In this document: one piece after another, positions 989-64,000 of the stretch
Layout of the letters: each line of letters opens with the position of its first letter
Position numbering within the stretch: the stretch's first letter is position 1
Source: an uncultured Clostridia bacterium
GTDB lineage: Bacteria > Bacillota > Clostridia > TANB77 > CAG-508
DNA length: 64,000 nt
Assembly: GCA_934169725.1 (NCBI GenBank)
Contig: CAKPOF010000003.1
Coordinates: 112,637-176,636 of the forward strand
Direction: 5' to 3'
Program-made: the position numbers and the translations under genes
Notes under the pieces: generated by a model
What the model saw: the letters and a program-made list of their open reading frames with translations, nothing else
The model's database searches: none
What the model was told of the DNA's origin: nothing

Positions 989-2251
989 ATGGATTATTTA
1001 TATATATTAAGAGAAGCTTTAGTATGGACTGTAACAATATTTTGGTTATACCAAGTAGTAGTTAGTTTATGTTCTTTAATAAAATTAAAAGATAAACCAT
1101 TAAAAGTAAACAAAGATCACAGATTTATGGCAATTATACCTGCACATAATGAAGAAGCGGTAGTTGCTAATTTAGTAGAAAGTTTAAAAAATCAAACATA
1201 TAATAAAGACTTATATGATATATATGTAATTGCTGATAATTGTACAGATAATACAGCAAAAGTAGCAAGAGATGCTGGAGCAATAGTATATGAAAGATTT
1301 GATGAAACTAAAAAAACAAAAGGATATGCATTAAATTGGTTTTTACAACAAAAAATCAAAGAAAATGCACCATATGATGCATTTTTCGTATTTGATGCTG
1401 ATAATATAGTAGACAAAAATTTCATAAAAAATATGAATAAAAAATTATGTCAAGGTGAAGATGTAGTACAAGGATATAGAGATATAAAAAATCCTTCTGA
1501 CAACTGGATTACAGCAGGATATGCAATATTCTATTGGCAAATGCATAGATTTTATCATTTAGCTAGATACAATATTGGATTATCACCATTACTAAATGGT
1601 ACAGGTTTTATGGTTAAATTTGATGTTATAAAACCACAAGGATGGGATACAGAAACTTTAACAGAAGATATAGAGTTTTCTTTAAAAAGAATTATAAAAG
1701 GTAAAAAATTAGGTTGGGCAACAGATGCTATTGTTTATGATGAACAACCAACAGGATTTAGACAAAGTTGGTCACAAAGAAGCAGATGGACAGTAGGACA
1801 TATTCAATGTATAAAAAAATATACAAAGGATTTAGCAATTGCTGCAAAAGAAAATAAAAAAATGATTAATATAGATGGATTATTTTATATAGTAGGAAGT
1901 ATTCCAATGTTTGTAATAACAATGTTATTATTATTTTCTAATTTTGTAATGTATAATTCATCAGCTATAACATCAGCAGAATTAATAAAAAATATATTAT
2001 TCTATTTACTTCCAACATTTGTATTACCAATATTTATAGGAATGTTTGCTATGTGGTTAGATGGAAGAAAAATTAAACCAATGGCAAAAGGATTACTTTG
2101 TTATCCATTATTCCTATTAACATGGATATTTATCAATTTTAAATGTTTATTTATAAGAAATACTTCATGGGAAAAGATAGACCATGTAAGAAGCATAAAA
2201 ATATCAGATGTTTCTGATGATGAAAATAAGACTGAAAAAGAATTAATTTAA
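989..2251 (+). CDS. Family 2 glycosyltransferase, processive PgaC/IcaA-like exopolysaccharide synthase
   Basis: N-terminal transmembrane segment, FDAD (DxD) motif, QRSRW (QxxRW) motif and four C-terminal transmembrane segments. RBS agagagg. Confidence 0.8.
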   Translation: MDYLYILREALVWTVTIFWLYQVVVSLCSLIKLKDKPLKVNKDHRFMAIIPAHNEEAVVANLVESLKNQTYNKDLYDIYVIADNCTDNTAKVARDAGAIVYERFDETKKTKGYALNWFLQQKIKENAPYDAFFVFDADNIVDKNFIKNMNKKLCQGEDVVQGYRDIKNPSDNWITAGYAIFYWQMHRFYHLARYNIGLSPLLNGTGFMVKFDVIKPQGWDTETLTEDIEFSLKRIIKGKKLGWATDAIVYDEQPTGFRQSWSQRSRWTVGHIQCIKKYTKDLAIAAKENKKMINIDGLFYIVGSIPMFVITMLLLFSNFVMYNSSAITSAELIKNILFYLLPTFVLPIFIGMFAMWLDGRKIKPMAKGLLCYPLFLLTWIFINFKCLFIRNTSWEKIDHVRSIKISDVSDDENKTEKELI

Positions 2252-2327
2252 TATATATAACATATAAGTGGACGTTTAAACTGTTATTTCTTGAAATGAC
2301 AATTCATAATGCTCCACTTATATTATT

Positions 2328-3881
2328 ATGAGTAAGTTGAATTTGAAAGGGACGAATAAAAATATGGAAAAATTAAAAAAAATAAATAAAAAATATTTAC
2401 ATATAGCAATTATTATAATAGGAGTTATATTTTTATTTTTATCATCTTTTCATGAAGATATATGGTTTGATGAAAGTTATTCAGTTGCTATAGCAAAACA
2501 CAATTTTATAGATATTTGGCAAATAACTGGACATGATGTGCATCCACCTTTATATTATTGGATGTTACATATAGTATGGATGATTTTTGGAAATAATGTA
2601 ATTGCATTTAGATTATTTTCAGTTTTAGCAATTGTATTATTGGGGATATTAGGATATACTCACATAAGAAAAGATTTTGGAGATAAAGCTGGTATTTTAT
2701 TTTCTTACTTGGTGTATTTTTTACCAGTAATGTGTACATATAGTCAAGAAATAAGAATGTATTCATGGTCATGTTTATTAATAACACTTTTAGCAATATA
2801 TGCATATAGATTATACAAAAAAATAAAAAACAAAGAAGAAAAAAATGTAAATAGAAATATAATATTGTTTGGTATACTTAGTATATTATCATGTTATATT
2901 CACTACTACGCTTTAGTTTCAGCAGGTTTAATAAATTTTGTGTTATTAATATATATAATAAAAAATAGGAAAAATGTACCTCATATATTAAGAAACTTTT
3001 TGATTTTAGCTTTTGTACAAATAATTTTATATGTTCCATGGTTGATTTACCTAAAAGGTCAAGTATCTCATGTAGAAAGTGGTTTTTGGATATATTTGGG
3101 AATGAGTACATTAGTTGAAGTGCCTAGCTTCCAATTTAGAAGACAATTAGATACTAATTTTTCATTTGATCTAAATACAATAATTGCACTTGTTTCGGCT
3201 TTAGCTATGTATATATATATAGGTTTAAAAATGTATAAAGCTAAAAAAGAAAAAAGTGAAATGTTACCAGGTGTATTAGCTTGGGTTTTGTATGTTGCAG
3301 TTATAGCATCTGTTTTAGTAGTGTCTCTAGTTATGAAACAATCAATATTGTTTGCAAGATACTTACTAGTTATTACTGGGTTATATATATTTGGAATAGC
3401 ATTTTTTATGGCAAAAGAAAAGAAAAATTGGTTAATTATATTAATATGTTCAATAATATTGATTTTAGGATGTATTAGTAATATTACTAACATACAAATA
3501 AATTATGATAGTAGTAATATGAAACAAATAGAATATTTAAGAGAAAATATAAAACAAGATGACATTATAATATATTCTAATATTGGAAATGGTGGAGTAA
3601 TAGCTGCATTTTTCCCAGAAAACAAGCAATATTTTTACAATGGTGAATATTGGGATGTAGAAGAAGCATATAAGGCTTATGGGCCAGCGATGGAAACAAT
3701 TTATAATTATGAAGATGTATTAAAAGATTATCATGGAAGAATATGGTTAATTGATTCAGAAGGTTGTGGATTGTATAATGAAATTCCGAAGGATGGATTA
3801 AAAACTATAGTAGAACCAACTGAATTTGTAACTAGATATCAAAATTACATATATACAATTGTATTGTTAGAAAAAGAATAA
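2328..3881 (+). CDS. Polytopic membrane protein, GT39/ArnT/PMT-like glycosyltransferase fold (the start may instead be the ATG at 2364)
   Basis: More than ten predicted transmembrane helices followed by a soluble C-terminal domain. Sits immediately downstream of the GT2 gene. Confidence 0.55.
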   Translation: MSKLNLKGTNKNMEKLKKINKKYLHIAIIIIGVIFLFLSSFHEDIWFDESYSVAIAKHNFIDIWQITGHDVHPPLYYWMLHIVWMIFGNNVIAFRLFSVLAIVLLGILGYTHIRKDFGDKAGILFSYLVYFLPVMCTYSQEIRMYSWSCLLITLLAIYAYRLYKKIKNKEEKNVNRNIILFGILSILSCYIHYYALVSAGLINFVLLIYIIKNRKNVPHILRNFLILAFVQIILYVPWLIYLKGQVSHVESGFWIYLGMSTLVEVPSFQFRRQLDTNFSFDLNTIIALVSALAMYIYIGLKMYKAKKEKSEMLPGVLAWVLYVAVIASVLVVSLVMKQSILFARYLLVITGLYIFGIAFFMAKEKKNWLIILICSIILILGCISNITNIQINYDSSNMKQIEYLRENIKQDDIIIYSNIGNGGVIAAFFPENKQYFYNGEYWDVEEAYKAYGPAMETIYNYEDVLKDYHGRIWLIDSEGCGLYNEIPKDGLKTIVEPTEFVTRYQNYIYTIVLLEKE

Positions 3882-3900
3882 TAAAAGGATACATAAGAAT

Positions 3901-5253
3901 ATGAATAATAAGATAGATATAAAAAAAAGCATATCTAATTTAATATTTACAATAATTTTATTTTTAGCGTTATATTTTGCGTATAGATTTTATCAAATTC
4001 ATAATTTTAATGAATTTATTAGAAGTGAAGCAAATATGGGATGTACAGAATTTAAAAGAGATAACAAAGAAAAATATTCAAAAATGAAGAGTTATGAAAT
4101 TAATTCAAACGATTTTAATGATGCCATGTTTTCTAAAGATATACAAGTAGAAAGAGATACACCATATAAAGTATCTTGTATGGTAAAAACGAAGAATGTA
4201 ATAGGAGATAAAGATACATCAGATATAGGTGCTCAAATTTCAATAAGTGATACTACTGAGAGATCAATATCTGTAAAAGGAGATAGTGAGTGGCAAAAAA
4301 TTGAATTGATATTTAATTCAAAAAATAGAACAAGTGTAAATATAGCATTTCGCTTAGGAGGAAGTGATGGATATGCTAAGGGAAATGCATGGTTTTCTGA
4401 CTTTTCTATAGAACAAGGAGAAAAAGATGATAATAATAACTGGAAATTTGCATGTTTAATATTTGACAATACAAGTGTAACTATAAATAATAATCCAGTT
4501 GATATACAAATTACAAGTAATGATATTGTAGATATAAAAAATACAATAAATAGGTTTGAAAAATCATGTAATACTTTATCAGAAAATAAAATGACTGCTG
4601 ATTGTGATATATATGAAATACAAGATCCAATCACATCTTTATCATATGATGATCAATTTGGATATTATGTTTCACCAGAAGATATTGAAAAACAAATAAA
4701 TAATGTTATAAATAAAAATGATTATGATCATATTTTTGCAATTATAAGATTAGGAAATGATGAACACAAAGATGATATTGAAATAAAAGATTGGATAGGT
4801 CTTGGGTCTATGGATTATTACGGTGTAGGATTTTCTAATATTAGATTGCCAAACAGTTCAAAAAGTTATATATATAAATATAATACTAGGGTTAACCAAT
4901 TTCCAGAGGAAGTTTTTTTACATGAATTTTTACATTCTTTAGAAAGAACGGCTAAAGAATATGGTTATCAAATTCCAGAACTACATGGATATAAAGAATA
5001 TGGATATCAAAATGAAGTTATTATTGGGCAAAAAAAATGGTATACAGATTATATGAATAAAAATATAAAAACAGCTGATGGATATACAGGCTTGCCAAAT
5101 GAAATATATACTATGAAACCAGCCAAAAAGTCTAATTTTGATTTTCCAATAGCATTAGATGTTTATGAAGAACCGCAAAACGTTATAGAAGAAATAAGAG
5201 GAATATTTGGTAATTTATTTAGAAATGCAAAAATCATAATTGGAAAAATATAA
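3901..5253 (+). CDS. Membrane-anchored secreted protein with an HExxH (HEFLHSLE) motif, a putative zinc metallopeptidase-like domain
   Basis: N-terminal transmembrane anchor. The HEFLH motif resembles the M64/M60-like HEFGH motif. RBS aaagga. Confidence 0.5.
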   Translation: MNNKIDIKKSISNLIFTIILFLALYFAYRFYQIHNFNEFIRSEANMGCTEFKRDNKEKYSKMKSYEINSNDFNDAMFSKDIQVERDTPYKVSCMVKTKNVIGDKDTSDIGAQISISDTTERSISVKGDSEWQKIELIFNSKNRTSVNIAFRLGGSDGYAKGNAWFSDFSIEQGEKDDNNNWKFACLIFDNTSVTINNNPVDIQITSNDIVDIKNTINRFEKSCNTLSENKMTADCDIYEIQDPITSLSYDDQFGYYVSPEDIEKQINNVINKNDYDHIFAIIRLGNDEHKDDIEIKDWIGLGSMDYYGVGFSNIRLPNSSKSYIYKYNTRVNQFPEEVFLHEFLHSLERTAKEYGYQIPELHGYKEYGYQNEVIIGQKKWYTDYMNKNIKTADGYTGLPNEIYTMKPAKKSNFDFPIALDVYEEPQNVIEEIRGIFGNLFRNAKIIIGKI

Positions 5254-9113: not shown

Positions 9114-10040
9114 ATGTGTAATATAAAAATTATAGAAAATGGAATATATCTTCCTAAAAAACAAGTAAAAAACAATGAATTAGAAAAATATTTAAATTTA
9201 GAAAATGGATATATAGAAAAAAGAACAGGAATAAAGCAAAGATATTATAGTATTGAAGAATCAATAGAAGATATGGCTCTAAATGCTGTAAACAATATAA
9301 AAAATATTTTAAAAGAAAAAGATAGTATTGGTCTTATAATAACAGCAACGACAAGTACAGATAAGATAATGCCTGGAATTTCAAACTATATTCAAAAAAA
9401 GTTAGATATAAAATCATGTATATGTTTAGATATATTAGCAGGATGTAGTGGATATATAAATGCTTTTGATATTGCTAAACTATATATAACTTCAGGGAAA
9501 GTAGATAAAGCATTAGTGATTGGAGTAGATAAATTATCACAAGTAATTGATAAAGATGATATTGGAACAGCAATTGTTTTATCAGATGGTGCAGGTGCAA
9601 CACTTCTAGGGAAGATTGATGAAGAAAAAGAATACAAAGTAAATATTACAGCAACAGGAAAAGGAAATGAAATTTTAACATACAATTATGGTGAAAATCT
9701 ATATATGAATGGTAAAGAAGTATATAAATATGCAGTCACAAAAACAATAGAAAATATAAAAGAGTTATTAAAAAATTCAAATTTAAAGCTTGAGGATATA
9801 AAATATATAATTCCACATCAGTCAAATTTAAAAATAATAAAATCAATAGCTTCGAGATTGCATATTGAATTAAACAAAATGTATATAGATATAGAAAATA
9901 ATGGAAATACATTTTGTGCAAGTATACCAATTGCTTTATATGATATAAATAAAGAAAATCTAATACAAAAAGGTGATAAGATAATTTTTTTAGGTTACGG
10001 CGGAGGATTAAATACAGGAAGTATATTAATTGAATTTTAA
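9114..10040 (+). CDS. fabH: 3-oxoacyl-ACP synthase III
   Basis: Active-site Cys (LAGCSGY), HQSNLKII motif and C-terminal GYGGGLN. Confidence 0.85.
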   Translation: MCNIKIIENGIYLPKKQVKNNELEKYLNLENGYIEKRTGIKQRYYSIEESIEDMALNAVNNIKNILKEKDSIGLIITATTSTDKIMPGISNYIQKKLDIKSCICLDILAGCSGYINAFDIAKLYITSGKVDKALVIGVDKLSQVIDKDDIGTAIVLSDGAGATLLGKIDEEKEYKVNITATGKGNEILTYNYGENLYMNGKEVYKYAVTKTIENIKELLKNSNLKLEDIKYIIPHQSNLKIIKSIASRLHIELNKMYIDIENNGNTFCASIPIALYDINKENLIQKGDKIIFLGYGGGLNTGSILIEF

Positions 10041-10056
10041 GAAAGGAAAATAAAAA

Positions 10057-10995
10057 ATGAAAAGAGTATTTTTATTCCCTGGTCAAGGGGCACAAGTTGT
10101 AGGAATGGGAAAAGATATATATGAAAAATATGAAGAAGCAAGAAAAATATATGACAAAGCTTCTGAAATATCAGGGATAGATGTGAAAAAAATTTGTTTT
10201 GATGGACCAGAAGAAGAATTAAATAAAACAGAAAATACACAAATAGCAATATTAACAACAAGCTTAGCAATATTGGAAGTTTTAAAGTCAAAAAATATAA
10301 ATGCAGAAATAGCTACAGGACTAAGTTTAGGTGAATATGGTGCATTGATATATTCTGGCATAATAAGTTTTGAAGATGGAATAAAATTGATACAAAAAAG
10401 AGGATATTATATGGGAAATATGTTACCAAAGGAAAAATATTCTATGGCAGCTGTAATAGGGTTAGATTCAAAAAAGATTGAAAAAGTTTGCGATGAAATT
10501 TCAAAACAAGATTTATTTATAGCAATAGCAAATTATAATTATAGTAAACAAACAGTTATATCAGGAGAAGAAAAAGCAATAAATATTGCGATGGAAAAAT
10601 TAAAAACATCTGGAGCTAAAAGAGTGATAAAATTAAATACAAGTGGACCATTTCATACAATAAAATTAGAAAAAGCTAGAATTCAATATGAAAAGGAATT
10701 AGAAAAAGTTAAATTTAATTTAAATACTAAGATAAAAGTAATAAAAAATATAGATGGTACATATTATGACATAAATGATAACATTAAGAAAATTTTATCG
10801 AAACATATAGTTAGTCCTGTTAGATTTGATAAAACAATAGAATTGCTAAAAGAAGCAAAAGCAGAAGAATATGTTGAGATTGGACCAGGAAAAACCTTAA
10901 CAGGATTTATAAAAAAAGAAAATAAAGAAGCAAACGTTGTAAATATAAACAATGTTGAAAGTTTGGAAAATTATTTAGAAAAAGGATTGGTGTAA
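10057..10995 (+). CDS. fabD: Malonyl-CoA:ACP transacylase
   Basis: FLFPGQGAQ motif and GLSLGEY (the GHSLGE-type nucleophile elbow). Confidence 0.88.
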   Translation: MKRVFLFPGQGAQVVGMGKDIYEKYEEARKIYDKASEISGIDVKKICFDGPEEELNKTENTQIAILTTSLAILEVLKSKNINAEIATGLSLGEYGALIYSGIISFEDGIKLIQKRGYYMGNMLPKEKYSMAAVIGLDSKKIEKVCDEISKQDLFIAIANYNYSKQTVISGEEKAINIAMEKLKTSGAKRVIKLNTSGPFHTIKLEKARIQYEKELEKVKFNLNTKIKVIKNIDGTYYDINDNIKKILSKHIVSPVRFDKTIELLKEAKAEEYVEIGPGKTLTGFIKKENKEANVVNINNVESLENYLEKGLV

Positions 10996-13509: not shown

Positions 13510-13932
13510 ATGTTAAATAAAGAACAAATAAAAGAAATTATACCACAAAGAGAACCGTTTTTAATGATAGATGAGGTAGAAGAATATATTCCTGGAGAAA
13601 GTTGTATTGCATACAAAAATGTAAATGAAAATGAGTATTATTTTAAAGGTCATTTTCCAGGAAATCCTATAATGCCAGGAGTATTAATTGTAGAAGCATT
13701 GGCACAAACAGGTGCAGTAGCAATATTATCAATGAAAGAAAATAAAGGGAAAAATGCTCTTTTTGGAGGAATTGATAAGTTAAGATTTAAAAGACAAGTT
13801 GTTCCTGGAGATAAATTGAAATTAGAGATGAAAATTATAAAGAAAAAAGGACCTATAGGAATAGGAGAAGCAATAGCAACTGTAGATGGAAAAATAGCTG
13901 TTAAAGGAGAGTTAACATTTGCATTAGTATAA
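13510..13932 (+). CDS. fabZ: 3-hydroxyacyl-ACP dehydratase
   Basis: [19 protein letters not shown] hot-dog motif. Confidence 0.9.
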
Positions 13933-13994
13933 GAGTGAAATATTTCTTGAATGTGTTTTAAGTTGGAATTATTGTTAAAAACACTGAATTTATT

Positions 13995-14060
13995 ACTAGT
14001 CAGTCATAAAAGTAAAATAATGATGTTTTAAAATTACAATTTGTATTTTAAGACATCATT
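13995..14060. other. Long inverted repeat / hairpin (aataatgatgtYttaaaat arms) downstream of fabZ
   Basis: About 20-bp complementary arms around a short loop. Read directly from the sequence. Confidence 0.5.
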
Positions 14061-14193
14061 ATTAAATTTTGGAATTTATATTGATAAAAATTTAGTAAAA
14101 TATATTGATTTAATTAATGTAAAAATATATAATGTTAATGAAAAATATAGTATTTTATACTAAACATTAGATGAAATTATGGGAGGACGAAGG

Positions 14194-15765
14194 ATGAAAA
14201 AAATGAAGTGTGATAATTTTATGGAATCAAAAGGTATAACATTAATAGCTTTAGTTATAACTATAATTGTGCTTTTAATATTAGCAGGAGTTACTATAAC
14301 GAGTATAACTGGAGAAAATGGAATATTATCAAAATCAACAGAAGCTAAAGCAAAGACAATAGTTGGTCAAGAAAAAGAACAGATAAGTTCAGCATATAGT
14401 GCAGCAGTAGCTAATAGATTAGGTGATGATTCAGTAACAGCAAGTGAAATACAAACAGAATTAGATAATATTGCTGGAAGTGGAAAAACTACAGTGTCTG
14501 GAGGAAACTCTTTTAAAATAAGATTTATAGATACTAATAATACGTATACAATATCAAAAAGTAAAGGTGTAGAAGAATATAAAAAAGAAGAGGTAACACC
14601 AGTATATGCTTTTTTATGTGATACAGATGGAAATGGAGAAGGAGAAACTTTAGTTTTAAGCAGTACAGATACAATAGATGGATATACAATTATAAAAAGC
14701 TATGGAGATAGTGAGGCATATGAAAGTAATGAAGATAATGCGGAAAAAAATTATGGAAATATATATTATTATCCAATTTGGAAAGATGATTTGAATGCAA
14801 TAAAAAATGCTGTTATATATAATAAAGTTGTTCCAACAATAACAGAGAGATGGTTTAACTGTTCAAATTTAACAGACATAAAAAATATAGAAAACGTAGA
14901 TACGTCAAATGTTACAAATATGACTTGTATGTTTTTAGATTGTTCTAATATAACTAATTTGGATTTAAGCAATTTTGATACGAGCAATGTTAAAAAAATG
15001 ATTAGTATGTTTAATAACTGTAAAAAGTTAACTAATTTAAATGTAGATAATTTTGATATAAGTAATGTTGAAGATATGAATAGTATGTTTTCAGGATGTT
15101 CTAGTTTAACAAGTTTAAACTTAAGTAGCTTTAAAGATAATAAAGTTGAAAGGATGAATAGTATTTTTATGGGTTGTGAAAATTTAACAAATTTAAATTT
15201 GACAAATTTAAAAACGAATAATGCTACATGGATGGGTTTAATGTTTTATAATTGTAAAAAATTATCGAATTTGGATTTAAAAAGTTTTGATACAAGTAAT
15301 GTTACAGATATGGATAATATGTTTAGGGAGTGCTCAAGTTTAACTAGTTTAGATTTATCTAATTTTAATACAAGTAATGTTACGAAGATGGATAGTATGT
15401 TTTCTGGCTGTACAAATTTGAAAAATTTAGATATAAGTAATTTTAATACAAGCAATGTTTACGATATGAGTGATATGTTTTATGGGTGTCAAAATTTAAC
15501 AAGTGTAGATTTGAGTGGCTTTGAATTAAATAGTTCAAAGCATGTAAATGTAAGGTCAATGTTCGAAAAATGTACACAACTAAAAACAATTTATGTAAAT
15601 TCGAAATGGGCAATGAAAGATGATTGGTATGGAGATAGTATGTTTAAAAATTGTACTAGTTTAGTTGGAGGTGCAGGAACAACATTTGATTCTTCTCATA
15701 CTGGACTTGAATATGCACATATAGATGGAGGAACAAGCAATCCTGGATATTTAACTGAAAAATAA
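14194..15765 (+). CDS. Surface protein with a prepilin-like (class III signal) N-terminus fused to BspA-type 26-residue repeats (TIGR02167-like)
   Basis: MKKMKCDNFMESKG|ITLIALVITIIVLLILAGV is pilin-like but has no Glu at +5. About ten repeats of the form MF.gC..LtsLdLSNFdTSNVt.M. RBS gggagga. Confidence 0.75.
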   Translation: MKKMKCDNFMESKGITLIALVITIIVLLILAGVTITSITGENGILSKSTEAKAKTIVGQEKEQISSAYSAAVANRLGDDSVTASEIQTELDNIAGSGKTTVSGGNSFKIRFIDTNNTYTISKSKGVEEYKKEEVTPVYAFLCDTDGNGEGETLVLSSTDTIDGYTIIKSYGDSEAYESNEDNAEKNYGNIYYYPIWKDDLNAIKNAVIYNKVVPTITERWFNCSNLTDIKNIENVDTSNVTNMTCMFLDCSNITNLDLSNFDTSNVKKMISMFNNCKKLTNLNVDNFDISNVEDMNSMFSGCSSLTSLNLSSFKDNKVERMNSIFMGCENLTNLNLTNLKTNNATWMGLMFYNCKKLSNLDLKSFDTSNVTDMDNMFRECSSLTSLDLSNFNTSNVTKMDSMFSGCTNLKNLDISNFNTSNVYDMSDMFYGCQNLTSVDLSGFELNSSKHVNVRSMFEKCTQLKTIYVNSKWAMKDDWYGDSMFKNCTSLVGGAGTTFDSSHTGLEYAHIDGGTSNPGYLTEK

Positions 15766-15772
15766 AAATAAA

Positions 15773-15816
15773 AAATCTTAGATTTTGTGTAAAACAATAA
15801 TCTAAGATTTTTTTGT
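15773..15816 (+). terminator. Rho-independent terminator
   Basis: aatcttagatt...aatctaagatt followed by a T7 run. Confidence 0.8.
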
Positions 15817-16061
15817 ATGCTAATATTTAAATCAAAAAAGAATAAAAATACCTCTTGAAAATATATTGCACAGAAAATTTGCTTTGCAATTTCGTGCACA
15901 AACAAAGACACGGGCTTAAAGAAGTTAAAATAAATAAAAATGTTATCAATGTCCGCTTTTGTTCTATCAAATTTAAGAATAATTATTGTATTTTTTTAAA
16001 TTATTGTTATAATAAGTAAGAAACTTATTATAATATCATAATAAAAAGAGGAGGATTTTTT

Positions 16062-17204
16062 ATGTTAAAAAAAGTAGCGATATTAGCAAATGGTGGAGAT
16101 GTAGCTGGATTTAATGCAGTTATAAGAGCTATAAAGAAAACATGTGAAACACATGGGATAGAGTGTTATGGATATATTGATGGATATAGAGGTTTAGTAG
16201 AAAATAATTATATAAGATTAGATGGAAATGAAAAAGCATCAGGAATATTACCTAAAGGTGGTTCTATAATTGGTTCTTCAACAAATGCAATTGTATTTCA
16301 CTATAAAGTAAAACATGAAGATGGAACTATAACATATGAGGATTTATCAGATAAATGTGTTCAAAATGTAAAAGATGCAGGTTTTGATTGTGTGTTTACA
16401 TTAGGTGGTGATAGTACTCAAAAATCAGCAAGAGATTTGTTTTTAAAAGGAATAAATACAATAGGTGTACCAAAAACGATAGATAATGATGTAGCATGTA
16501 CTGATGTTACATTTGGTTATAATACTGCTGTTCATGTTGCAACAGAGGCTATAGATAGATTACATACAACAGCAGAAACACATGATAGAATTATGGTTCT
16601 AGAAGTTATGGGAAGGTTTGCTGGATGGATTGCATTAGAATCTGCAATATCAGGTGGAGCAGATGTTGCTTTAATACCAGAAATTCCATATGATATTAAT
16701 AAAGCAGCAGAGACAATAAATAAAAGAAAACAATCAGGGAAAAAATTCAGTGTTGTTGTTGTATCAGAGGGAGCACATCCTAAAAATGAAGAGGCAACAA
16801 CACATTCAGCAGAAGGTATAGATAATCAAGCAGGAATTAGTATAAAATTTGGTGGCGAAGGAACAAGAGTTGCAAAAGAGCTTCAAGAATTAACAGGATT
16901 AGAGGCAAGATGTACTACATTAGGATATATGCAAAGAGGTGGGACACCAACTGCATATGATAGAGTTTTATCTACTAAATATGGTGCTAAAGCAATGGAA
17001 TTAGCAATGGATGGTAAATTTGGTGTCTTAACTGTTATTAAAAATGGAAAATTAGATTCTGTACCATTGGAAATAGTGGTTGGAAAGAATAAAGAGTTAG
17101 GAGCTGTACAAGGTGGTACTGCTGAAAGTAATGTAAGGTATGTAACAATGGATCATGATTTAGTAAAAACTGCAAGAGATATTGGTATTTGTTTAGGTGA
17201 TTAA
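16062..17204 (+). CDS. pfk: 6-phosphofructokinase (PfkA family; ATP- or PPi-dependent cannot be decided)
   Basis: ANGGDVAGFNAVIRA, GGDST and MGRFAGWIALESA motifs. Confidence 0.85.
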   Translation: MLKKVAILANGGDVAGFNAVIRAIKKTCETHGIECYGYIDGYRGLVENNYIRLDGNEKASGILPKGGSIIGSSTNAIVFHYKVKHEDGTITYEDLSDKCVQNVKDAGFDCVFTLGGDSTQKSARDLFLKGINTIGVPKTIDNDVACTDVTFGYNTAVHVATEAIDRLHTTAETHDRIMVLEVMGRFAGWIALESAISGGADVALIPEIPYDINKAAETINKRKQSGKKFSVVVVSEGAHPKNEEATTHSAEGIDNQAGISIKFGGEGTRVAKELQELTGLEARCTTLGYMQRGGTPTAYDRVLSTKYGAKAMELAMDGKFGVLTVIKNGKLDSVPLEIVVGKNKELGAVQGGTAESNVRYVTMDHDLVKTARDIGICLGD

Positions 17205-56743: not shown

Positions 56744-56786
56744 CAAAAAAACAATATAGACTTTAAAATCTATATTGTTTTTTATT
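56744..56786. terminator. Bidirectional terminator aacaatatagactttaaaatctatattgtt
   Basis: Lies between convergent genes. A and T runs flank it. Confidence 0.8.
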
Positions 56787-57415
56787 TATTTTACTTGTTT
56801 TAATTGTTTAGCTTTTATTATTGAAATAATTACACTTATAGTCAATAATAAAATAGTAAGTATTATTATAATATTATTTATACCAGCATAGGGTAAAATT
56901 TTATTAGCCAAATTGCTTTTATTATTTGTTATAGAAGAAGTAGGAGTAGAAGATGATGATGGATTTGGTTTGTTATTGTCATCGTTGTCATTATTAGATG
57001 ACGATTGAACCTGTTCATTTGTCCAATCCTTTATAGTAGTTATTTCATCTTGCATTTCACTTAAAGTATCATCATTTAAATCATTATTAACCTGAGATGT
57101 TAATTCTGATTTTAATACTTCTAAAACAAATGGATCCATATCTGAAACATTATCTAACATATTTATATCATTCATTAATGTTTCTTTTAGTTCATCAGTA
57201 ACTTTTGTAGCAGTATTAAGATCATTATAAGTTTTATCAACTACTGTTTTAAATTCATTTAGATTTCCTAACTGTTCTTTATATTCATTTAATAATTCAA
57301 CTAAATCTTCCTTGTCGCTGGTAGAGGTTTCTGCATAAGTAGGGAAACACATAGATAGAATAAAATATAATATTAATAATAATGTAATAATAATTTTTCT
57401 TGTATTTATATTCAT
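56786..57415 (-). CDS. Secreted acidic surface protein with a C-terminal LPYAG-hydrophobic-basic tail (sortase-substrate-like)
   Basis: Signal peptide. Motif LPYAG + INNIIIILTILLLTISVIISII + KAKQLKQVK. Start at the Met after RBS aaagga. Confidence 0.6.
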   Translation of the reverse strand: MNINTRKIIITLLLILYFILSMCFPTYAETSTSDKEDLVELLNEYKEQLGNLNEFKTVVDKTYNDLNTATKVTDELKETLMNDINMLDNVSDMDPFVLEVLKSELTSQVNNDLNDDTLSEMQDEITTIKDWTNEQVQSSSNNDNDDNNKPNPSSSSTPTSSITNNKSNLANKILPYAGINNIIIILTILLLTISVIISIIKAKQLKQVK

Positions 57416-57457
57416 AATAATTATTCCTTTCAATATTTTTCATTAGTGTATATTAAA

Positions 57458-61206: not shown

Positions 61207-61505
61207 ATAAAAAATCCTTTCAAGAAAGTAATTACTAAAATATATGTAATATTGTATAAATTAATGACTAATAAATTTGAATTAGTTTATATATGTTACA
61301 ATATAAGTCTCAATTTAAAATATTTAACTTATATTATAAAAGTTTAACAATATATTATTAAATTTAAAAAATGATTTATTTTATAAGCTATGAATTTGTG
61401 ACATAAGTAGAAGAAATATAAAAAAATAAGAGTGTAAACTATTGCTAATTTTAAATATTAGTGATATAGTAACATGGAAAAATAAACTTAGGAGGACAGT
61501 TAATA

Positions 61506-64000
61506 ATGGGATTATTTAAAACATACAGTCAAAAAGAAGTAAAAAGAGTAAGGCCATTAGTAAATAAAATAAATGAGCTTGAAGAAGAAATATCAAAATT
61601 AAGTGATGCGGAATTAAGAGGAAAAACAGAGTATTTTAAAAAACAATTATCTGAAGGAAAAACATTAGATGATATATTACCAGAGGCTTTTGCAGTAGTT
61701 AGAGAGGCATCAAAAAGAGTTCTAGGTATGAGACATTTTGATGTTCAATTAATTGGTGGTATTATATTACATCAAGGAAGAATTGCTGAGATGAAAACAG
61801 GTGAAGGAAAAACATTAGTTGCTACATTACCTGTATATTTAAATGCACTTGAAGGAAAAGGTGTACATGTTATTACAGTAAATGATTATTTAGCTAAAAG
61901 AGATAGTGAATGGATGGGAAAATTATATAAATTTTTAGGATTATCTGTTGGGCTTGTAATTGCTGGAATGGAACCTAAAGAAAAACAAAAAGCATATAGT
62001 GCTGATGTTACATATGGTACAAATAATGAATTTGGATTTGATTACTTAAGAGATAACATGGTTATATATAAAGATCAATTAGTACAAAGAGGATTAAATT
62101 ATGCAATTGTCGATGAAATTGATAGTATCTTAATAGATGAAGCTAGAACACCACTTATAATTTCAGGAAGAGCAAATCAATCATCTGATTTATATAAAAA
62201 AGCAGACAATTTTGTAAGAAGGTTAACACCAAAAGTTATTGTTGAAGAAGATGTTAAAGATTTTGAACAAGCAGAAGATAATGAAAGATATGATTATATT
62301 GTTGATTTAAAAGCAAAATCAGCTTCACTTACACAAAAAGGAATAAAAAAAGCAGAAGAAGCTTTTGGATTAGATAATTTTAATGATTTAGAAAATTCAA
62401 CATTAGTTCATCATGTTAACCAAGCATTACGTGCACATGGAGTTATGAAAAAAGATATTGATTATATAGTCAAAGATGGTGAAGTTTTAATTGTAGATGA
62501 ATTTACTGGACGTATTATGTATGGAAGACGTTATAACAACGGATTGCATCAAGCAATTGAAGCTAAAGAACATGTAAAAATTGCAGATGAATCAAAAACA
62601 TTGGCTACAATAACATTTCAAAACTATTTTAGAATGTATGATAAATTATCAGGTATGACAGGTACAGCTATGACAGAAGAAGCTGAATTTGAAGAAATAT
62701 ACAATTTAGACGTTGTTGAAATACCAACAAATAAACCAATGGTACGTAAAGATGAGAATGATGTTATTTATAAAAATGAGAATGCTAAATTTAATGCTAT
62801 AGTAAATAGTATTAAAGAAAGTCATAAAAAAGGACAACCAGTGTTAGTTGGTACAGTTTCAATTGAAAAATCAGAAAAATTAAGTAAATTATTAAATAAA
62901 GAGGGAATTAAGCACGAAGTTTTAAATGCTAAATATCATGAAAAAGAAGCAGAGATAGTTGCTCAAGCAGGTAAATTTGGAGCTGTAACAATTGCGACAA
63001 ACATGGCAGGACGTGGTACAGATATTATTTTAGGTGGAAACAGTGAATTCTTAGCTAAAGAAGAAATGAGAAAAAGTAAGATATCTCATGAATTAATAGA
63101 AGAAGCCAATACATATTATGAAACAGACGACAAAGATATTTTGAATGCTAGAGAAACATTTAAAAAATTAGTAAGTAAATATGATGAACAAATAAAAGAA
63201 GAAAAAGAAAAAGTTATTAATGCAGGTGGACTAAAAATAATAGGAACAGAAAGACATGAATCAAGAAGAATTGATAACCAATTAAGAGGCCGTTCAGGAC
63301 GTCAAGGAGATAATGGTGAGTCTAAATTTTACATTGCATTAGATGATGATTTAATGAAAATATTTGGTGGAGACACAATTACAAAAGTATATAATTCAAT
63401 AGGTGCAGACGAAAATATGCCAATAGAATCTAGAATTATTTCAAAGGCAGTAGAAAATGCGCAAAAGAAAGTAGAAGGAAGAAACTTTTCAATACGTAAA
63501 AATGTATTGAAATATGATGATGTTATGAATGCACAAAGAGAAATTATCTATGCACAAAGAAGAGAAGTTCTTGATGGAGAAAATATTCATGATAATATAA
63601 TAAATATGATTGATACTGTTGCTGAAGCTACTGTTAACATGTATGTTGAAAATGAAAATGGAGATGTAAATGTAGAAGCTTTAAATCAAGAAATAATCAA
63701 TACATATGGAATAGAGATGTTAGACTACATTAAAGAAAATAATTCAGAAGCACAAAAAATTTCTGAAGAACTTATAAAAAAAGCAAACGAAAAATATGCA
63801 GAAAAAGAAGCAGAAATTGGCTCAGAAGAAATGAGAGAACTTGAAAGAGTAGTTATGCTTAAAGTTGTAGACGAAAAATGGATGAATCATATTGATAGTA
63901 TGGATGAATTAAAAAATGGTATAGGTTTACGTGCTTATGGACAACAAGATCCTGTTGTTAAATATAGAATTGAAGGAATGGACATGTTTGAAGAAATGAT
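61506..64000 (+). CDS. secA: Preprotein translocase ATPase SecA (3' end lies outside the window)
   Basis: N-terminus MGLFK..., Walker [15 protein letters not shown] and DEAD-like motifs. Confidence 0.93.

What the first reader, a model, noticed from the sequence alone, without database searches (positions are those of the whole stretch)
14194..15765. Chimeric surface protein: type IV pilin-like class III signal sequence fused to BspA-type 26-residue repeats
The N-terminus (basic leader ending in Gly, then ITLIALVITIIVLLILAGV) looks like a prepilin peptidase substrate, but it lacks the Glu at +5 that is needed for pilus assembly. The rest of the protein consists of about ten TIGR02167-like repeats (MF.gC..LtsLdLSNFdTSNVtdM), as found in BspA, Listeria and Mycoplasma adhesins. 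This could be a tip or minor pilin that carries an adhesin module, or a case where a pilin signal has been co-opted as a membrane anchor for an LRR-like adhesin.
Basis: partly seen in the sequence, partly recalled or inferred. Interest (0 to 1): 0.65.

Follow-up and report, generated by a model that had tools for sequence, protein, structure and literature searches.

The report
Glu5-less modular pilin carrying LRR adhesin
This gene of an uncultured gut Clostridia bacterium most likely encodes a modular type IV pilin, a complete small pilin joined to a leucine-rich-repeat-like binding domain, from a very large unannotated family whose pilins, including those in the pilus operons of related genomes, all lack the usual glutamate at position 5.

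Summary
ORF 14194-15765 (+, 523 aa) has a Lys-rich 14-residue leader ending in Gly. After it come 25 hydrophobic residues with Ala at +5, not Glu, and then 9 regular plus 2 degenerate 26-residue PARCEL/DUF285 repeats (TIGR02167 E 2.8e-65).

The N-terminus is more than a signal sequence. Residues 1-135 align along their whole length with 135-145-aa pilins of related low-GC Clostridia MAGs. Those pilins carry the same KG|ITLIALVITIIVLLILAGV N-terminus. They lie in a conserved operon: pilM/N-like genes, pilin(s), PilD-like gene, two minor pilins, pilB, pilT, pilC. The similarity is strong over helix alpha1 and weak over the beta-sheet head.

One 1.48-Mb contig carries this operon and, about 215 kb away, a 752-aa protein with the same pilin-plus-DUF285 architecture. 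Ala5 is therefore a trait of the lineage, not a mark of a tip pilin.

The family is very large: 20,724 50%-identity representatives match at E<=1e-10. Standard pilin signatures miss it.

Pilin-DUF285 fusions with canonical Glu5 signals are already catalogued (Raynaud 2021), so this is a new variant of a known kind.

Not shown: cleavage, pilus incorporation, or a pilus operon in this genome, of which only 64 kb is visible.

The parts
14105..14133 (+). Promoter-like site TTGATT-17-TATAAT, about 60 nt upstream of the start codon
   Evidence: 10 of 12 matches, the best site in the region. The number of sites found is not above chance, so this is only a candidate. The gene lies between fabZ (ends 13932) and pfk (starts 16062), with gaps of 261 and 296 nt.
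14181..14187 (+). Shine-Dalgarno sequence GGGAGGA
   Evidence: Read directly from the sequence. It lies 7 nt before ATG 14194, which supports that start over ATG 14179.
14194..15765 (+). Coding sequence of 523 aa plus stop: modular pilin-like protein
14194..14235 (+). Leader peptide MKKMKCDNFMESKG (aa 1-14). It is hydrophilic and net positive and ends in Gly, the predicted prepilin-peptidase cleavage site.
   Evidence: Position -1 is Gly in 114 and Ala in 5 of 119 homologs. Leaders vary from 5 to 56 residues.
14236..14310 (+). Hydrophobic alpha1N segment ITLIALVITIIVLLILAGVTITSIT (aa 15-39), with Ala at +5
   Evidence: near-invariant in the closest homologs retrieved. PDB profile hits to MshA, geopilin and PilA align exactly here. 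PF07963 scores 13.8 bits, below its cutoff of 21.2.
14236..14598 (+). Pilin module (aa 15-135): alpha1N, a GENG break, alpha1C (aa 44-74), a short helix (aa 83-94) and a 4-stranded beta-sheet (aa 99-128)
   Evidence: AF2 model, pLDDT 87. Whole-length alignment with the 136-aa operon pilin of L068. Head-only similarity is weak.
14599..14850 (+). Junction and N-terminal cap of the repeat domain (aa 136-219). It includes a low-confidence loop at aa 177-191.
   Evidence: Full-length AF2 model: strands at 138-172, pLDDT below 50 at 177-191
14851..15552 (+). Nine regular 26-residue PARCEL/DUF285 repeats (aa 220-453), with the pattern MFxxCxxLxxLxLSNFDTSNVxxMxx
   Evidence: The model has pLDDT around 90 here, and its Foldseek hits in the PDB are LRR proteins.
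15559..15717 (+). Two degenerate terminal repeat units (aa 456-508)
15718..15762 (+). C-terminal tail (AHIDGGTSNPGYLTEK), modelled with low confidence
   Evidence: pLDDT below 50 for aa 493-523

Best explanation
The ORF encodes a modular type IV pilin. It consists of a complete small pilin module (aa 1-135) joined to an LRR-like solenoid of 26-residue PARCEL/DUF285 repeats.

Proposed mechanism, all steps inferred:
1. The Lys-rich leader stays in the cytoplasm and the hydrophobic helix inserts into the membrane through Sec.
2. The lineage's PilD-like protein cleaves after Gly14. It may also N-methylate Ile+1, because its Cys4 methylase domain is conserved.
3. The type IV pilus machinery (PilB, PilC, PilM/N-like proteins) takes the subunit up by its alpha1 helix. 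The subunit enters the filament at low abundance, most likely at the tip because the attached module is bulky.
4. The LRR-like module is thereby held beyond the cell wall, where it binds a ligand and mediates adhesion.

Shown: the sequence anatomy, the homology to operon-encoded pilins in relatives, and the presence of the fusion and the operon on one chromosome in a relative.

Inferred: cleavage, methylation, polymerisation, tip location, the ligand, and the presence of the operon in this genome.
For: 1. The class III signal anatomy is present: a hydrophilic leader ending in Gly, then 25 hydrophobic residues. Across the family, position -1 is only Gly or Ala. That is the rule stated for type 4 prepilins (PMC10191384).
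2. N_methyl is the best Pfam match to the N-terminus, though below threshold (13.8 bits; 20.8 bits after an in-silico A5E change). Six of the 9 PDB profile hits are type IV pilins, and the printed alignments fall on KGxTLIxLvi..ILA.
3. Five related operons have the order pilM/N-like, pilin(s) with the identical KGITLIALVITIIVLLILAGV N-terminus, PilD-like gene (A24_N_bact E 3.9e-29), two minor pilins, PilB (T2SSE 1.7e-101 plus MshEN), PilT, PilC (T2SSF).
4. Residues 11-135 of the ORF align with residues 3-133 of a 136-aa operon pilin (40% identity, E 9e-22).
5. The fusion and the machinery occur in the same genome. Contig ERZ27273536 contig_259 (1,475,658 bp) holds the operon at 411-426 kb and a 752-aa pilin-module plus DUF285 protein at about 640 kb. 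MAGs CALXFF01 and CAUWGA01 each hold the operon and a separate long paralog.
6. The whole pilin module is kept in paralogs with unrelated C-terminal modules: FGE-sulfatase-like, LRR_5, DUF285, dockerin, Glug, RCC1. The alpha1N coding DNA is only 79% identical where the peptide is 93.5% identical, so selection acts on the protein.
7. Modular pilins act as tip-located adhesins in S. sanguinis (PMC8179133, PMC9934059). A DUF285 protein contributes to adhesion in L. lactis (PMC5071367).
Against: - No pil gene lies in the 64-kb window, and this genome's operon was not seen.
- The gene stands alone between fabZ and pfk.
- Glu5, which normally forms the inter-subunit salt bridge, is absent. PF07963 is below threshold and TIGR02532 does not hit.
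- Foldseek of the pilin-module model found no significant PDB pilin (best E 0.7).
- Outside alpha1 the similarity to operon pilins is weak: head-only BLASTP E 0.004, and the profile-profile comparison aligns only alpha1C.
- The PilD-like protein shows no Peptidase_A24 (PF01478) match in 30 of 30 members even at E<=10, so its protease activity is inferred only from two invariant Asp residues.
- Several paralogs per genome is many for tip subunits.
Confidence: 0.68

Rival explanations
1. Pilin-derived membrane anchor. The N-terminus descends from a pilin but now serves only as an uncleaved or cleaved N-in signal anchor. It holds the LRR adhesin on the cytoplasmic membrane, and the protein is never polymerised.
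For: There is no Glu5. The gene stands alone and is unlinked to pil genes. Several paralogs occur per genome: up to 6 were seen in partial data. The pilin signatures are below threshold.
Against: - A simple anchor would not need an invariant Gly/Ala at -1.
- It would not need a near-invariant 25-residue sequence that is identical to the one in operon pilins.
- It would not need the conserved alpha1C and beta-sheet module kept in thousands of paralogs.
- A membrane-tethered protein in a monoderm would also have to cross the cell wall to reach a ligand.
Confidence: 0.2
2. Pilus-machinery-dependent surface display without a true pilus. The class III signal routes many binding and enzymatic modules to a short pseudopilus or surface assembly. 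The analogues are the Sulfolobus bindosome and type II secretion pseudopili.
For: - The family shows many module types behind one constant N-terminus, including enzyme-like and dockerin modules.
- It is very large.
- There is an archaeal precedent: sugar-binding proteins with class III signals and no Glu5 (PMC3047682, listed).
Against: The operon includes a PilT-type retraction ATPase and one or two short pilins of typical major-pilin size. This fits a dynamic type IVa-like pilus. No dedicated second assembly system was seen.
Confidence: 0.1
3. Ordinary Sec signal peptide. Signal peptidase I removes the hydrophobic segment and a soluble LRR protein is released.
For: The N-terminus has the general shape of a signal peptide, with a positive n-region followed by a hydrophobic core.
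Against: Signal peptides do not keep a near-invariant sequence across proteins that are only 40-60% identical elsewhere. The same sequence heads pilins located beside a PilD-like gene. The conserved GENGIL and alpha1C continuation forms one module with it.
Confidence: 0.02

Closest known systems
Modular type IV pilins (S. sanguinis PilB and PilC; InterPro architectures IPR012902-IPR005046 and IPR012902-IPR026906 in Raynaud et al. 2021, PMC8179133)
   Same: Both have an N-terminal pilin module with a class III-type signal joined to a C-terminal binding module that is not specific to pili. The pilin-DUF285 architecture itself is already listed: 9 proteins with one copy and further proteins with several copies. 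Pilin-BspA-LRR is listed with 18 proteins and pilin-FGE-sulfatase (IPR005532) with 8. In S. sanguinis the role is tip-located adhesion.
   Different: - The catalogued proteins were found through IPR012902, that is, canonical signals. This protein has Ala5 and falls below the PF07963 threshold, with no TIGR02532 hit.
- It is not encoded in the pil operon.
- Its family has several scattered or tandem paralogs per genome, not two operon-encoded ones.
Minor pilins lacking Glu5 that cap the filament tip (GspK / PilK, S. sanguinis PilA)
   Same: They also lack Glu5. S. sanguinis PilA likewise has a degenerate class III signal that the bioinformatic tools miss (PMC9934059).
   Different: In those systems only the capping subunit lacks Glu5 and the major pilin keeps it. 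Here the operon's short, presumed major pilins and all modular paralogs have Ala5. One operon minor pilin (G|FTGID) carries the only acidic +5 residue.
Archaeal class III signal proteins (archaeal pilins, archaellins, Sulfolobus bindosome sugar-binding proteins)
   Same: They have a class III signal without Glu5, and they use that signal on large binding proteins as well as on filament subunits.
   Different: This is a bacterial system with PilB, PilT and PilC, and with a PilD-like protein that carries the bacterial A24_N_bact methylase domain. The alpha1N sequence resembles bacterial type IVa pilins position by position.
PARCEL / DUF285 / TIGR02167 surface proteins of Mycoplasma, Listeria and Lactococcus
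   Same: They share the 26-residue repeat family. They are surface-exposed proteins that vary between strains (PMC2996958), and one contributes to adhesion (PMC5071367).
   Different: Those proteins are attached by lipoprotein signals, transmembrane segments or cell-wall anchors. Here the carrier is a pilin module.

Membership tests
Type IV pilin (class III signal peptide; IPR012902 / PF07963 / TIGR02532) | Hydrophilic leader peptide ending in Gly or Ala | tested here: met
   The leader is MKKMKCDNFMESKG. Position -1 is Gly in 114 and Ala in 5 of 119 homologs, and Gly in 113 and Ala in 5 of 118.
Type IV pilin (class III signal peptide; IPR012902 / PF07963 / TIGR02532) | Stretch of 20-25 mainly hydrophobic residues directly after the cleavage site | tested here: met
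   ITLIALVITIIVLLILAGVTITSIT, 25 residues; helical in the model
Type IV pilin (class III signal peptide; IPR012902 / PF07963 / TIGR02532) | Glu (or Asp) at position +5. It is frequent but not obligatory according to PMC10191384. | tested here: not met
   Ala at +5 in this protein. In relatives +5 is Ala, Ser or Val, never Glu or Asp.
Type IV pilin (class III signal peptide; IPR012902 / PF07963 / TIGR02532) | Score above the curated cutoff of the signature models | tested here: not met
   PF07963 scores 13.8 bits against a cutoff of 21.2, and 20.8 bits after an in-silico A5E change. TIGR02532 gives no hit at E<=1. Ten of 86 family members reach E<=1e-3 for N_methyl.
Type IV pilin (class III signal peptide; IPR012902 / PF07963 / TIGR02532) | Pilin fold: long N-terminal alpha1 helix packed against a 4-stranded antiparallel beta-sheet | tested here: inconclusive
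Type IV pilin (class III signal peptide; IPR012902 / PF07963 / TIGR02532) | Homology to pilins encoded in an operon with pilD, pilB and pilC | tested here: met
   40% identity, E 9e-22, over the whole 136-aa pilin of L068. That operon was verified by Pfam. The same arrangement occurs in L054 and L086-L090. The similarity lies mainly in alpha1.
Type IV pilin (class III signal peptide; IPR012902 / PF07963 / TIGR02532) | Pilus machinery (prepilin peptidase, extension ATPase, platform protein) encoded in the same genome | not testable with these tools
   Only 64 kb of this genome is visible and it holds no pil genes. The feature is met in relatives, including one 1.48-Mb contig that holds both the operon and the same fusion.
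Type IV pilin (class III signal peptide; IPR012902 / PF07963 / TIGR02532) | Cleavage (and N-methylation) by a prepilin peptidase, and polymerisation into a filament | not testable with these tools
   This needs biochemistry. The candidate peptidase also has a divergent catalytic domain.
Modular type IV pilin (Raynaud et al. 2021) | Pilin module followed by a domain that is not specific to pilus biology | tested here: met
   Pilin module aa 1-135, then DUF285/TIGR02167 repeats aa 220-508
PARCEL / DUF285 / TIGR02167 repeat proteins | Tandem 26-residue repeats scoring above the curated cutoffs | tested here: met
   TIGR02167 scores 215 bits (cutoff 30) in 9 stretches. PF03382 scores 163.5 bits (cutoff 25). 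The spacing is exactly 26 residues.
BspA-type LRR (PF13306 LRR_5) | Match to the LRR_5 model | tested here: not met
   No PF13306 hit at E<=1. The similarity is structural only, to the LRR protein 4fs7. Eight of 86 paralogs in other genomes do carry LRR_5.

The most novel reading that the evidence does not exclude
A clade of uncultured low-GC gut Clostridia may run a bacterial type IV pilus system that has dispensed with Glu5 altogether. Its major pilins have Ala5. Its prepilin peptidase keeps the methylase domain but has a catalytic domain too divergent for Peptidase_A24 models. The pilin module would serve as a general display scaffold for a very large, exchangeable repertoire of binding and enzyme-like modules: PARCEL and BspA LRRs, FGE-sulfatase-like, dockerin, RCC1 and Glug. 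The family has tens of thousands of members and is invisible to current pilin annotation.
Probability: 0.35. Interest if true: 0.75.

Novelty: new variant of a known kind. Interest (0 to 1): 0.55.

Why it matters
Type IV pilins are found and annotated through a signature built around Glu5. This residue is thought to neutralise the N-terminal amine of the neighbouring subunit and to drive subunit docking.

A bacterial lineage whose operon-encoded pilins all carry Ala5 would make that rule directly testable. It would also show that pilin annotation has a large blind spot: 20,724 50%-identity representatives match this pilin-module profile at E<=1e-10, and none of the family members inspected carried a functional name.

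For gut microbiology, it points to pili that carry interchangeable LRR and other binding modules as a main adhesion system of abundant, uncultured, small-genome Clostridia of animal and human guts.

Tried and rejected
- **Phage origin.** tblastn of the pilin module against 50,697 phage records found no match. Rejected.
- **Canonical Glu5 pilins near family members.** A regex scan of 1.1 Mb of flanking DNA found none.
- **Pil genes in the window.** Reading all ORFs and a motif scan found none.
- **Recent gene conversion as the cause of N-terminal invariance.** Rejected, because the coding DNA is only 79% identical where the peptide is 93.5% identical.
- **Homology of the beta-sheet head to operon pilins.** It is only weak: BLASTP E 0.004, and hhalign aligns only alpha1C at 62% probability. 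I do not claim that head homology is established.
- **Identity of the PilD-like catalytic domain.** No PF01478 or NCBIfam hit. The PDB profile search returned only chance zinc-finger matches.
- **Literature search for the motif** (ITLIALV and similar): no paper found.
Full report
**1. What is in the sequence**

The window has 26.8% G+C. Its genes are housekeeping genes of a spore-forming Firmicute: queA, tgt, the fab operon, pfk, valS, ftsZ, uvrB, a hydrogenase, murD and guaA.

The finding's ORF lies alone between fabZ (ends 13932) and pfk (starts 16062). The mechanical ORF starts at 14179. A GGGAGGA ribosome-binding site at 14181-14187 precedes the ATG at 14194 by 7 nt. Independent gene calls on 8 metagenome contigs give exactly the 523-aa product starting at 14194.

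**2. The repeats**

The C-terminal half matches TIGR02167, annotated as 'PARCEL repeat-containing surface protein', in 9 stretches (E 2.8e-65). It also matches PF03382 DUF285 (E 2e-48). Tandem Repeats Finder reports a 78-nt period with 7.4 copies. Laying the protein out on its MFxxC anchors gives nine units spaced exactly 26 residues apart (aa 220-453), followed by two degenerate units.

A full-length AlphaFold model (pLDDT 79.5, about 90 over the repeats) has leucine-rich-repeat proteins as its best PDB matches. The top hits are the Bacteroides ovatus protein 4fs7 (E 8.8e-07) and the Eubacterium ventriosum protein 4h09, followed by TLRs and SHOC2.

**3. The N-terminus**

The sequence is MKKMKCDNFMESKG | ITLIALVITIIVLLILAGVTITSIT | GENGIL.

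- PF07963 N_methyl is the best Pfam match to the first 59 residues. It scores 13.8 bits against a cutoff of 21.2. Changing Ala5 to Glu in silico raises the score to 20.8.
- TIGR02532 does not hit.
- A profile of the first 135 residues was searched against all PDB sequences. It returned 9 weak hits, 6 of them type IV pilins: MshA, two geopilins, PilA, S. sanguinis PilE1 and Thermus PilA5 (E 0.04-2). The three printed alignments fall on KGxTLIxLvi..ILA.

On its own this evidence is suggestive and no more.

**4. The family**

A search with residues 1-221 found more than 7,400 proteins. None of the 120 listed carried a name or a Pfam domain over the N-terminal region.

In the top 119:
- position -1 is Gly (114) or Ala (5);
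- position +1 is Ile;
- position +5 is Ala in all;
- the 19 following residues are almost invariant;
- the leader varies from 5 to 56 residues;
- the rest of the protein is 40-60% identical.

The word-indexed search favours shared words. I therefore also ran a filter-free HMMER search of 1.84 billion 50%-identity representatives with the 133-position module profile. It found 32,170 hits at E<=1e-3, 20,724 at E<=1e-10 and 692 at E<=1e-30. In the 150 listed hits the match lies at the protein's N-terminus, and protein lengths run from 115 to 733 aa. Among 118 of the new top hits, +5 is Ala (112), Ser (5) or Val (1), never Glu or Asp.

The 63 nt that encode the motif are on average 79% identical between genomes where the peptide is 93.5% identical. 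The constraint therefore acts on the protein.

**5. The decisive context**

A scan of one genome per GTDB species found at least 476 relatives. The 80 loci kept all come from uncultured Clostridia MAGs of rabbit, sheep, chicken and human guts. Genes occur singly or in tandem arrays of 2-4, with up to 6 per MAG in this partial sample.

In two loci, L054 and L068, proteins of only 136-145 aa carry the same N-terminus and lie inside a type IV pilus operon. Pfam confirms the following for L068:
- a PilM/N-like protein;
- the two short pilins (N_methyl about 18 bits, below threshold);
- a 270-aa protein with the bacterial prepilin-peptidase N-terminal domain (A24_N_bact, E 3.9e-29);
- two further pilin-like genes, G|FTGID with Asp5 and G|ITLISL with Ser5;
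- PilB (T2SSE E 1.7e-101, plus MshEN);
- a PilT-type ATPase;
- PilC (T2SSF).

Looking up homologs of the PilD-like protein gave the same operon in four more places, L086-L090. Its position is conserved between spoVA-dodecin-rsmB on one side and a ROK kinase and a GH25 lysozyme on the other. Ala5 pilins are present in the four of these loci whose pilin genes were translated.

The window protein's residues 11-135 align with residues 3-133 of one such 136-aa pilin (40% identity, E 9e-22). The ORF therefore begins with a whole pilin, not just a signal sequence.

This similarity is concentrated in helix alpha1. With the first 45 residues removed, BLASTP gives E 0.004 over 76 residues. A profile-profile comparison aligns only alpha1C (62% probability). 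That is usual for pilins, but it means homology of the beta-sheet head is not established.

**6. Fusion and machinery in one genome**

Two MAGs, CALXFF01 and CAUWGA01, hold the operon and, on another contig, a 408- or 434-aa paralog with the same N-terminus.

The 1,475,658-bp contig ERZ27273536 contig_259 gives stronger evidence. It holds the operon at 411-426 kb. At 634-645 kb it holds a 752-aa protein with the pilin module followed by DUF285 repeats, the same architecture as the window ORF. Next to that gene lies a frameshifted pilin-Glug gene.

Loci carrying the operon have the same G+C as the window, 26-30%.

The window's own genome could not be checked. The closest GTDB relatives are CALXAE01 (90% identity on one protein) and CALXBY01 (68-91% identity, syntenic across fab and pfk). 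In CALXBY01 the fabZ-pfk gap holds an 8-kb island with three family members, so this site is variable.

**7. Modules across the family**

Among 86 complete family members from GTDB MAGs, the C-terminal parts match FGE-sulfatase-like (10), LRR_5 (8), DUF285 (7), Dockerin_1 (6), Glug (4), RCC1 (3) and others. Ten members reach E<=1e-3 for N_methyl.

**8. Mechanism**

The best reading is a modular type IV pilin. The proposed steps are Sec insertion with the leader in the cytoplasm, cleavage after Gly14 by the PilD-like protein, uptake by the pilus machinery through alpha1, and display of the LRR-like module, probably at the tip, for adhesion. All of these steps are inferred.

Three arguments favour assembly over a mere anchor:
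- position -1 is restricted to Gly or Ala, the stated rule for type 4 prepilins (PMC10191384);
- alpha1N is identical to that of the operon pilins;
- a full pilin module is retained in every paralog.

The missing Glu5 cannot be used to infer a tip position, because the operon's short pilins lack it too.

Caveats:
- The PilD-like protein has no detectable Peptidase_A24 domain in 30 of 30 members even at E<=10. NCBIfam does not recognise it.
- It does keep four invariant Cys residues and two invariant Asp residues, D126 and D176.
- Assigning the short pilins as 'major' rests only on their size and their position in the operon.

**9. Comparison with what is known**

Modular pilins are established in S. 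sanguinis, where PilB carries a vWA module and PilC a lectin module and both are located at the tip (PMC8179133, PMC9934059).

Raynaud et al. searched InterPro for IPR012902 combined with another domain. Their Dataset S1 already lists IPR012902-IPR005046 (DUF285; 9 proteins, plus multi-copy forms), IPR012902-IPR026906 (18 proteins) and IPR012902-IPR005532 (8 proteins). The architecture is therefore not new.

Three things are different here:
- the class III signal lacks Glu5 and so escapes IPR012902, TIGR02532 and PF07963;
- this trait is shared by an entire pilus system, including its presumed major pilins and a divergent PilD;
- the family is very large and its genes are scattered through the genome.

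No paper containing the motif was found.

**10. Verdict**

The novelty class is a new variant of a known kind, and interest is moderate to good.

The main open points are whether this genome carries the operon and whether Ala5 prepilins are cleaved and polymerised.

Noticed in passing
L068:10486-11298 (also L054:10556-11371, L086-L090:7001-7816; proteins P0121-P0240): The PilD-like protein of the pilus operons keeps the A24_N_bact methylase domain with four invariant Cys residues. It has no Peptidase_A24 (PF01478) match in 30 of 30 members even at E<=10, and no NCBIfam hit. Two Asp residues (D126, D176) are invariant in 120 homologs. The GxGD context usual around the second catalytic Asp (recalled from the literature, not tested here) is absent. 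The search found 3,753 homologs.
   Followed up: partly
L068:9574-12151, L054:10022-12299, L086-L089 equivalents: In the operons the one or two short pilins have Ala at +5. One minor pilin (G|F/YTG(I/V)D) has Asp at +5 and the other (G|(I/V)TLISL) has Ser. This is the reverse of the usual pattern, in which the major pilin has Glu5 and only the tip cap lacks it.
   Followed up: partly
L036:7500-15730 (CALXBY01, syntenic with window 13932-16062): In a related MAG the fabZ-pfk gap holds an 8-kb island in place of the window's single gene. The island has three family members (one apparently frameshifted), a GT2 glycosyltransferase and two large multi-pass membrane proteins. This looks like a variable hotspot and hints at pilin glycosylation.
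   Followed up: no
L091:5001-9164 (ERZ27273536 contig_259, about 634-645 kb): This is a tandem pair of family members. One has a Glug-like C-terminal part and appears to be split by a frameshift into products of 378 and 173 aa. The other is an intact 752-aa pilin-module plus DUF285 protein.
   Followed up: partly
86 family members in loci L006-L085 (alignment A2): Six members carry type I dockerin domains, ten carry FGE-sulfatase-like domains and three carry RCC1 beta-propellers behind the same pilin module. These modules suggest functions beyond simple adhesion.
   Followed up: no
window 56786-57433 (-): This 215-aa Asn/Ser-rich protein has an N-terminal signal. It ends in LPYAGINNIIIILTILLLTISVIISIIKAKQLKQVK, which looks like a sortase-type LPxAG sorting signal with a hydrophobic segment and a basic tail. 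The organism may therefore also have sortase-anchored surface proteins.
   Followed up: no
window 989-5253 (+); L027:998-3172 and 9529-10791: The window encodes a GT2 glycosyltransferase, a 517-aa multi-pass protein that looks like a PMT/ArnT-type glycosyltransferase (judged from the sequence, not scanned) and a 450-aa unknown protein. In the closest MAG (CALXAE01), a 724-aa family member with a variant N-terminus (G|ITLLVL, Val at +5) lies about 6 kb from the 90%-identical GT2 gene.
   Followed up: no
L019:13902-17188: Downstream of two family members lies a run of five small proteins, each with a single N-terminal transmembrane segment. Several of them have a conserved AKY motif. Their function is unknown.
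   Followed up: no
window 61207-64000: No ORF of 120 aa or more lies in the last 2.8 kb. The source contig ends about 300 bp after the window. This may be an rRNA or repeat region that broke the assembly.
   Followed up: no
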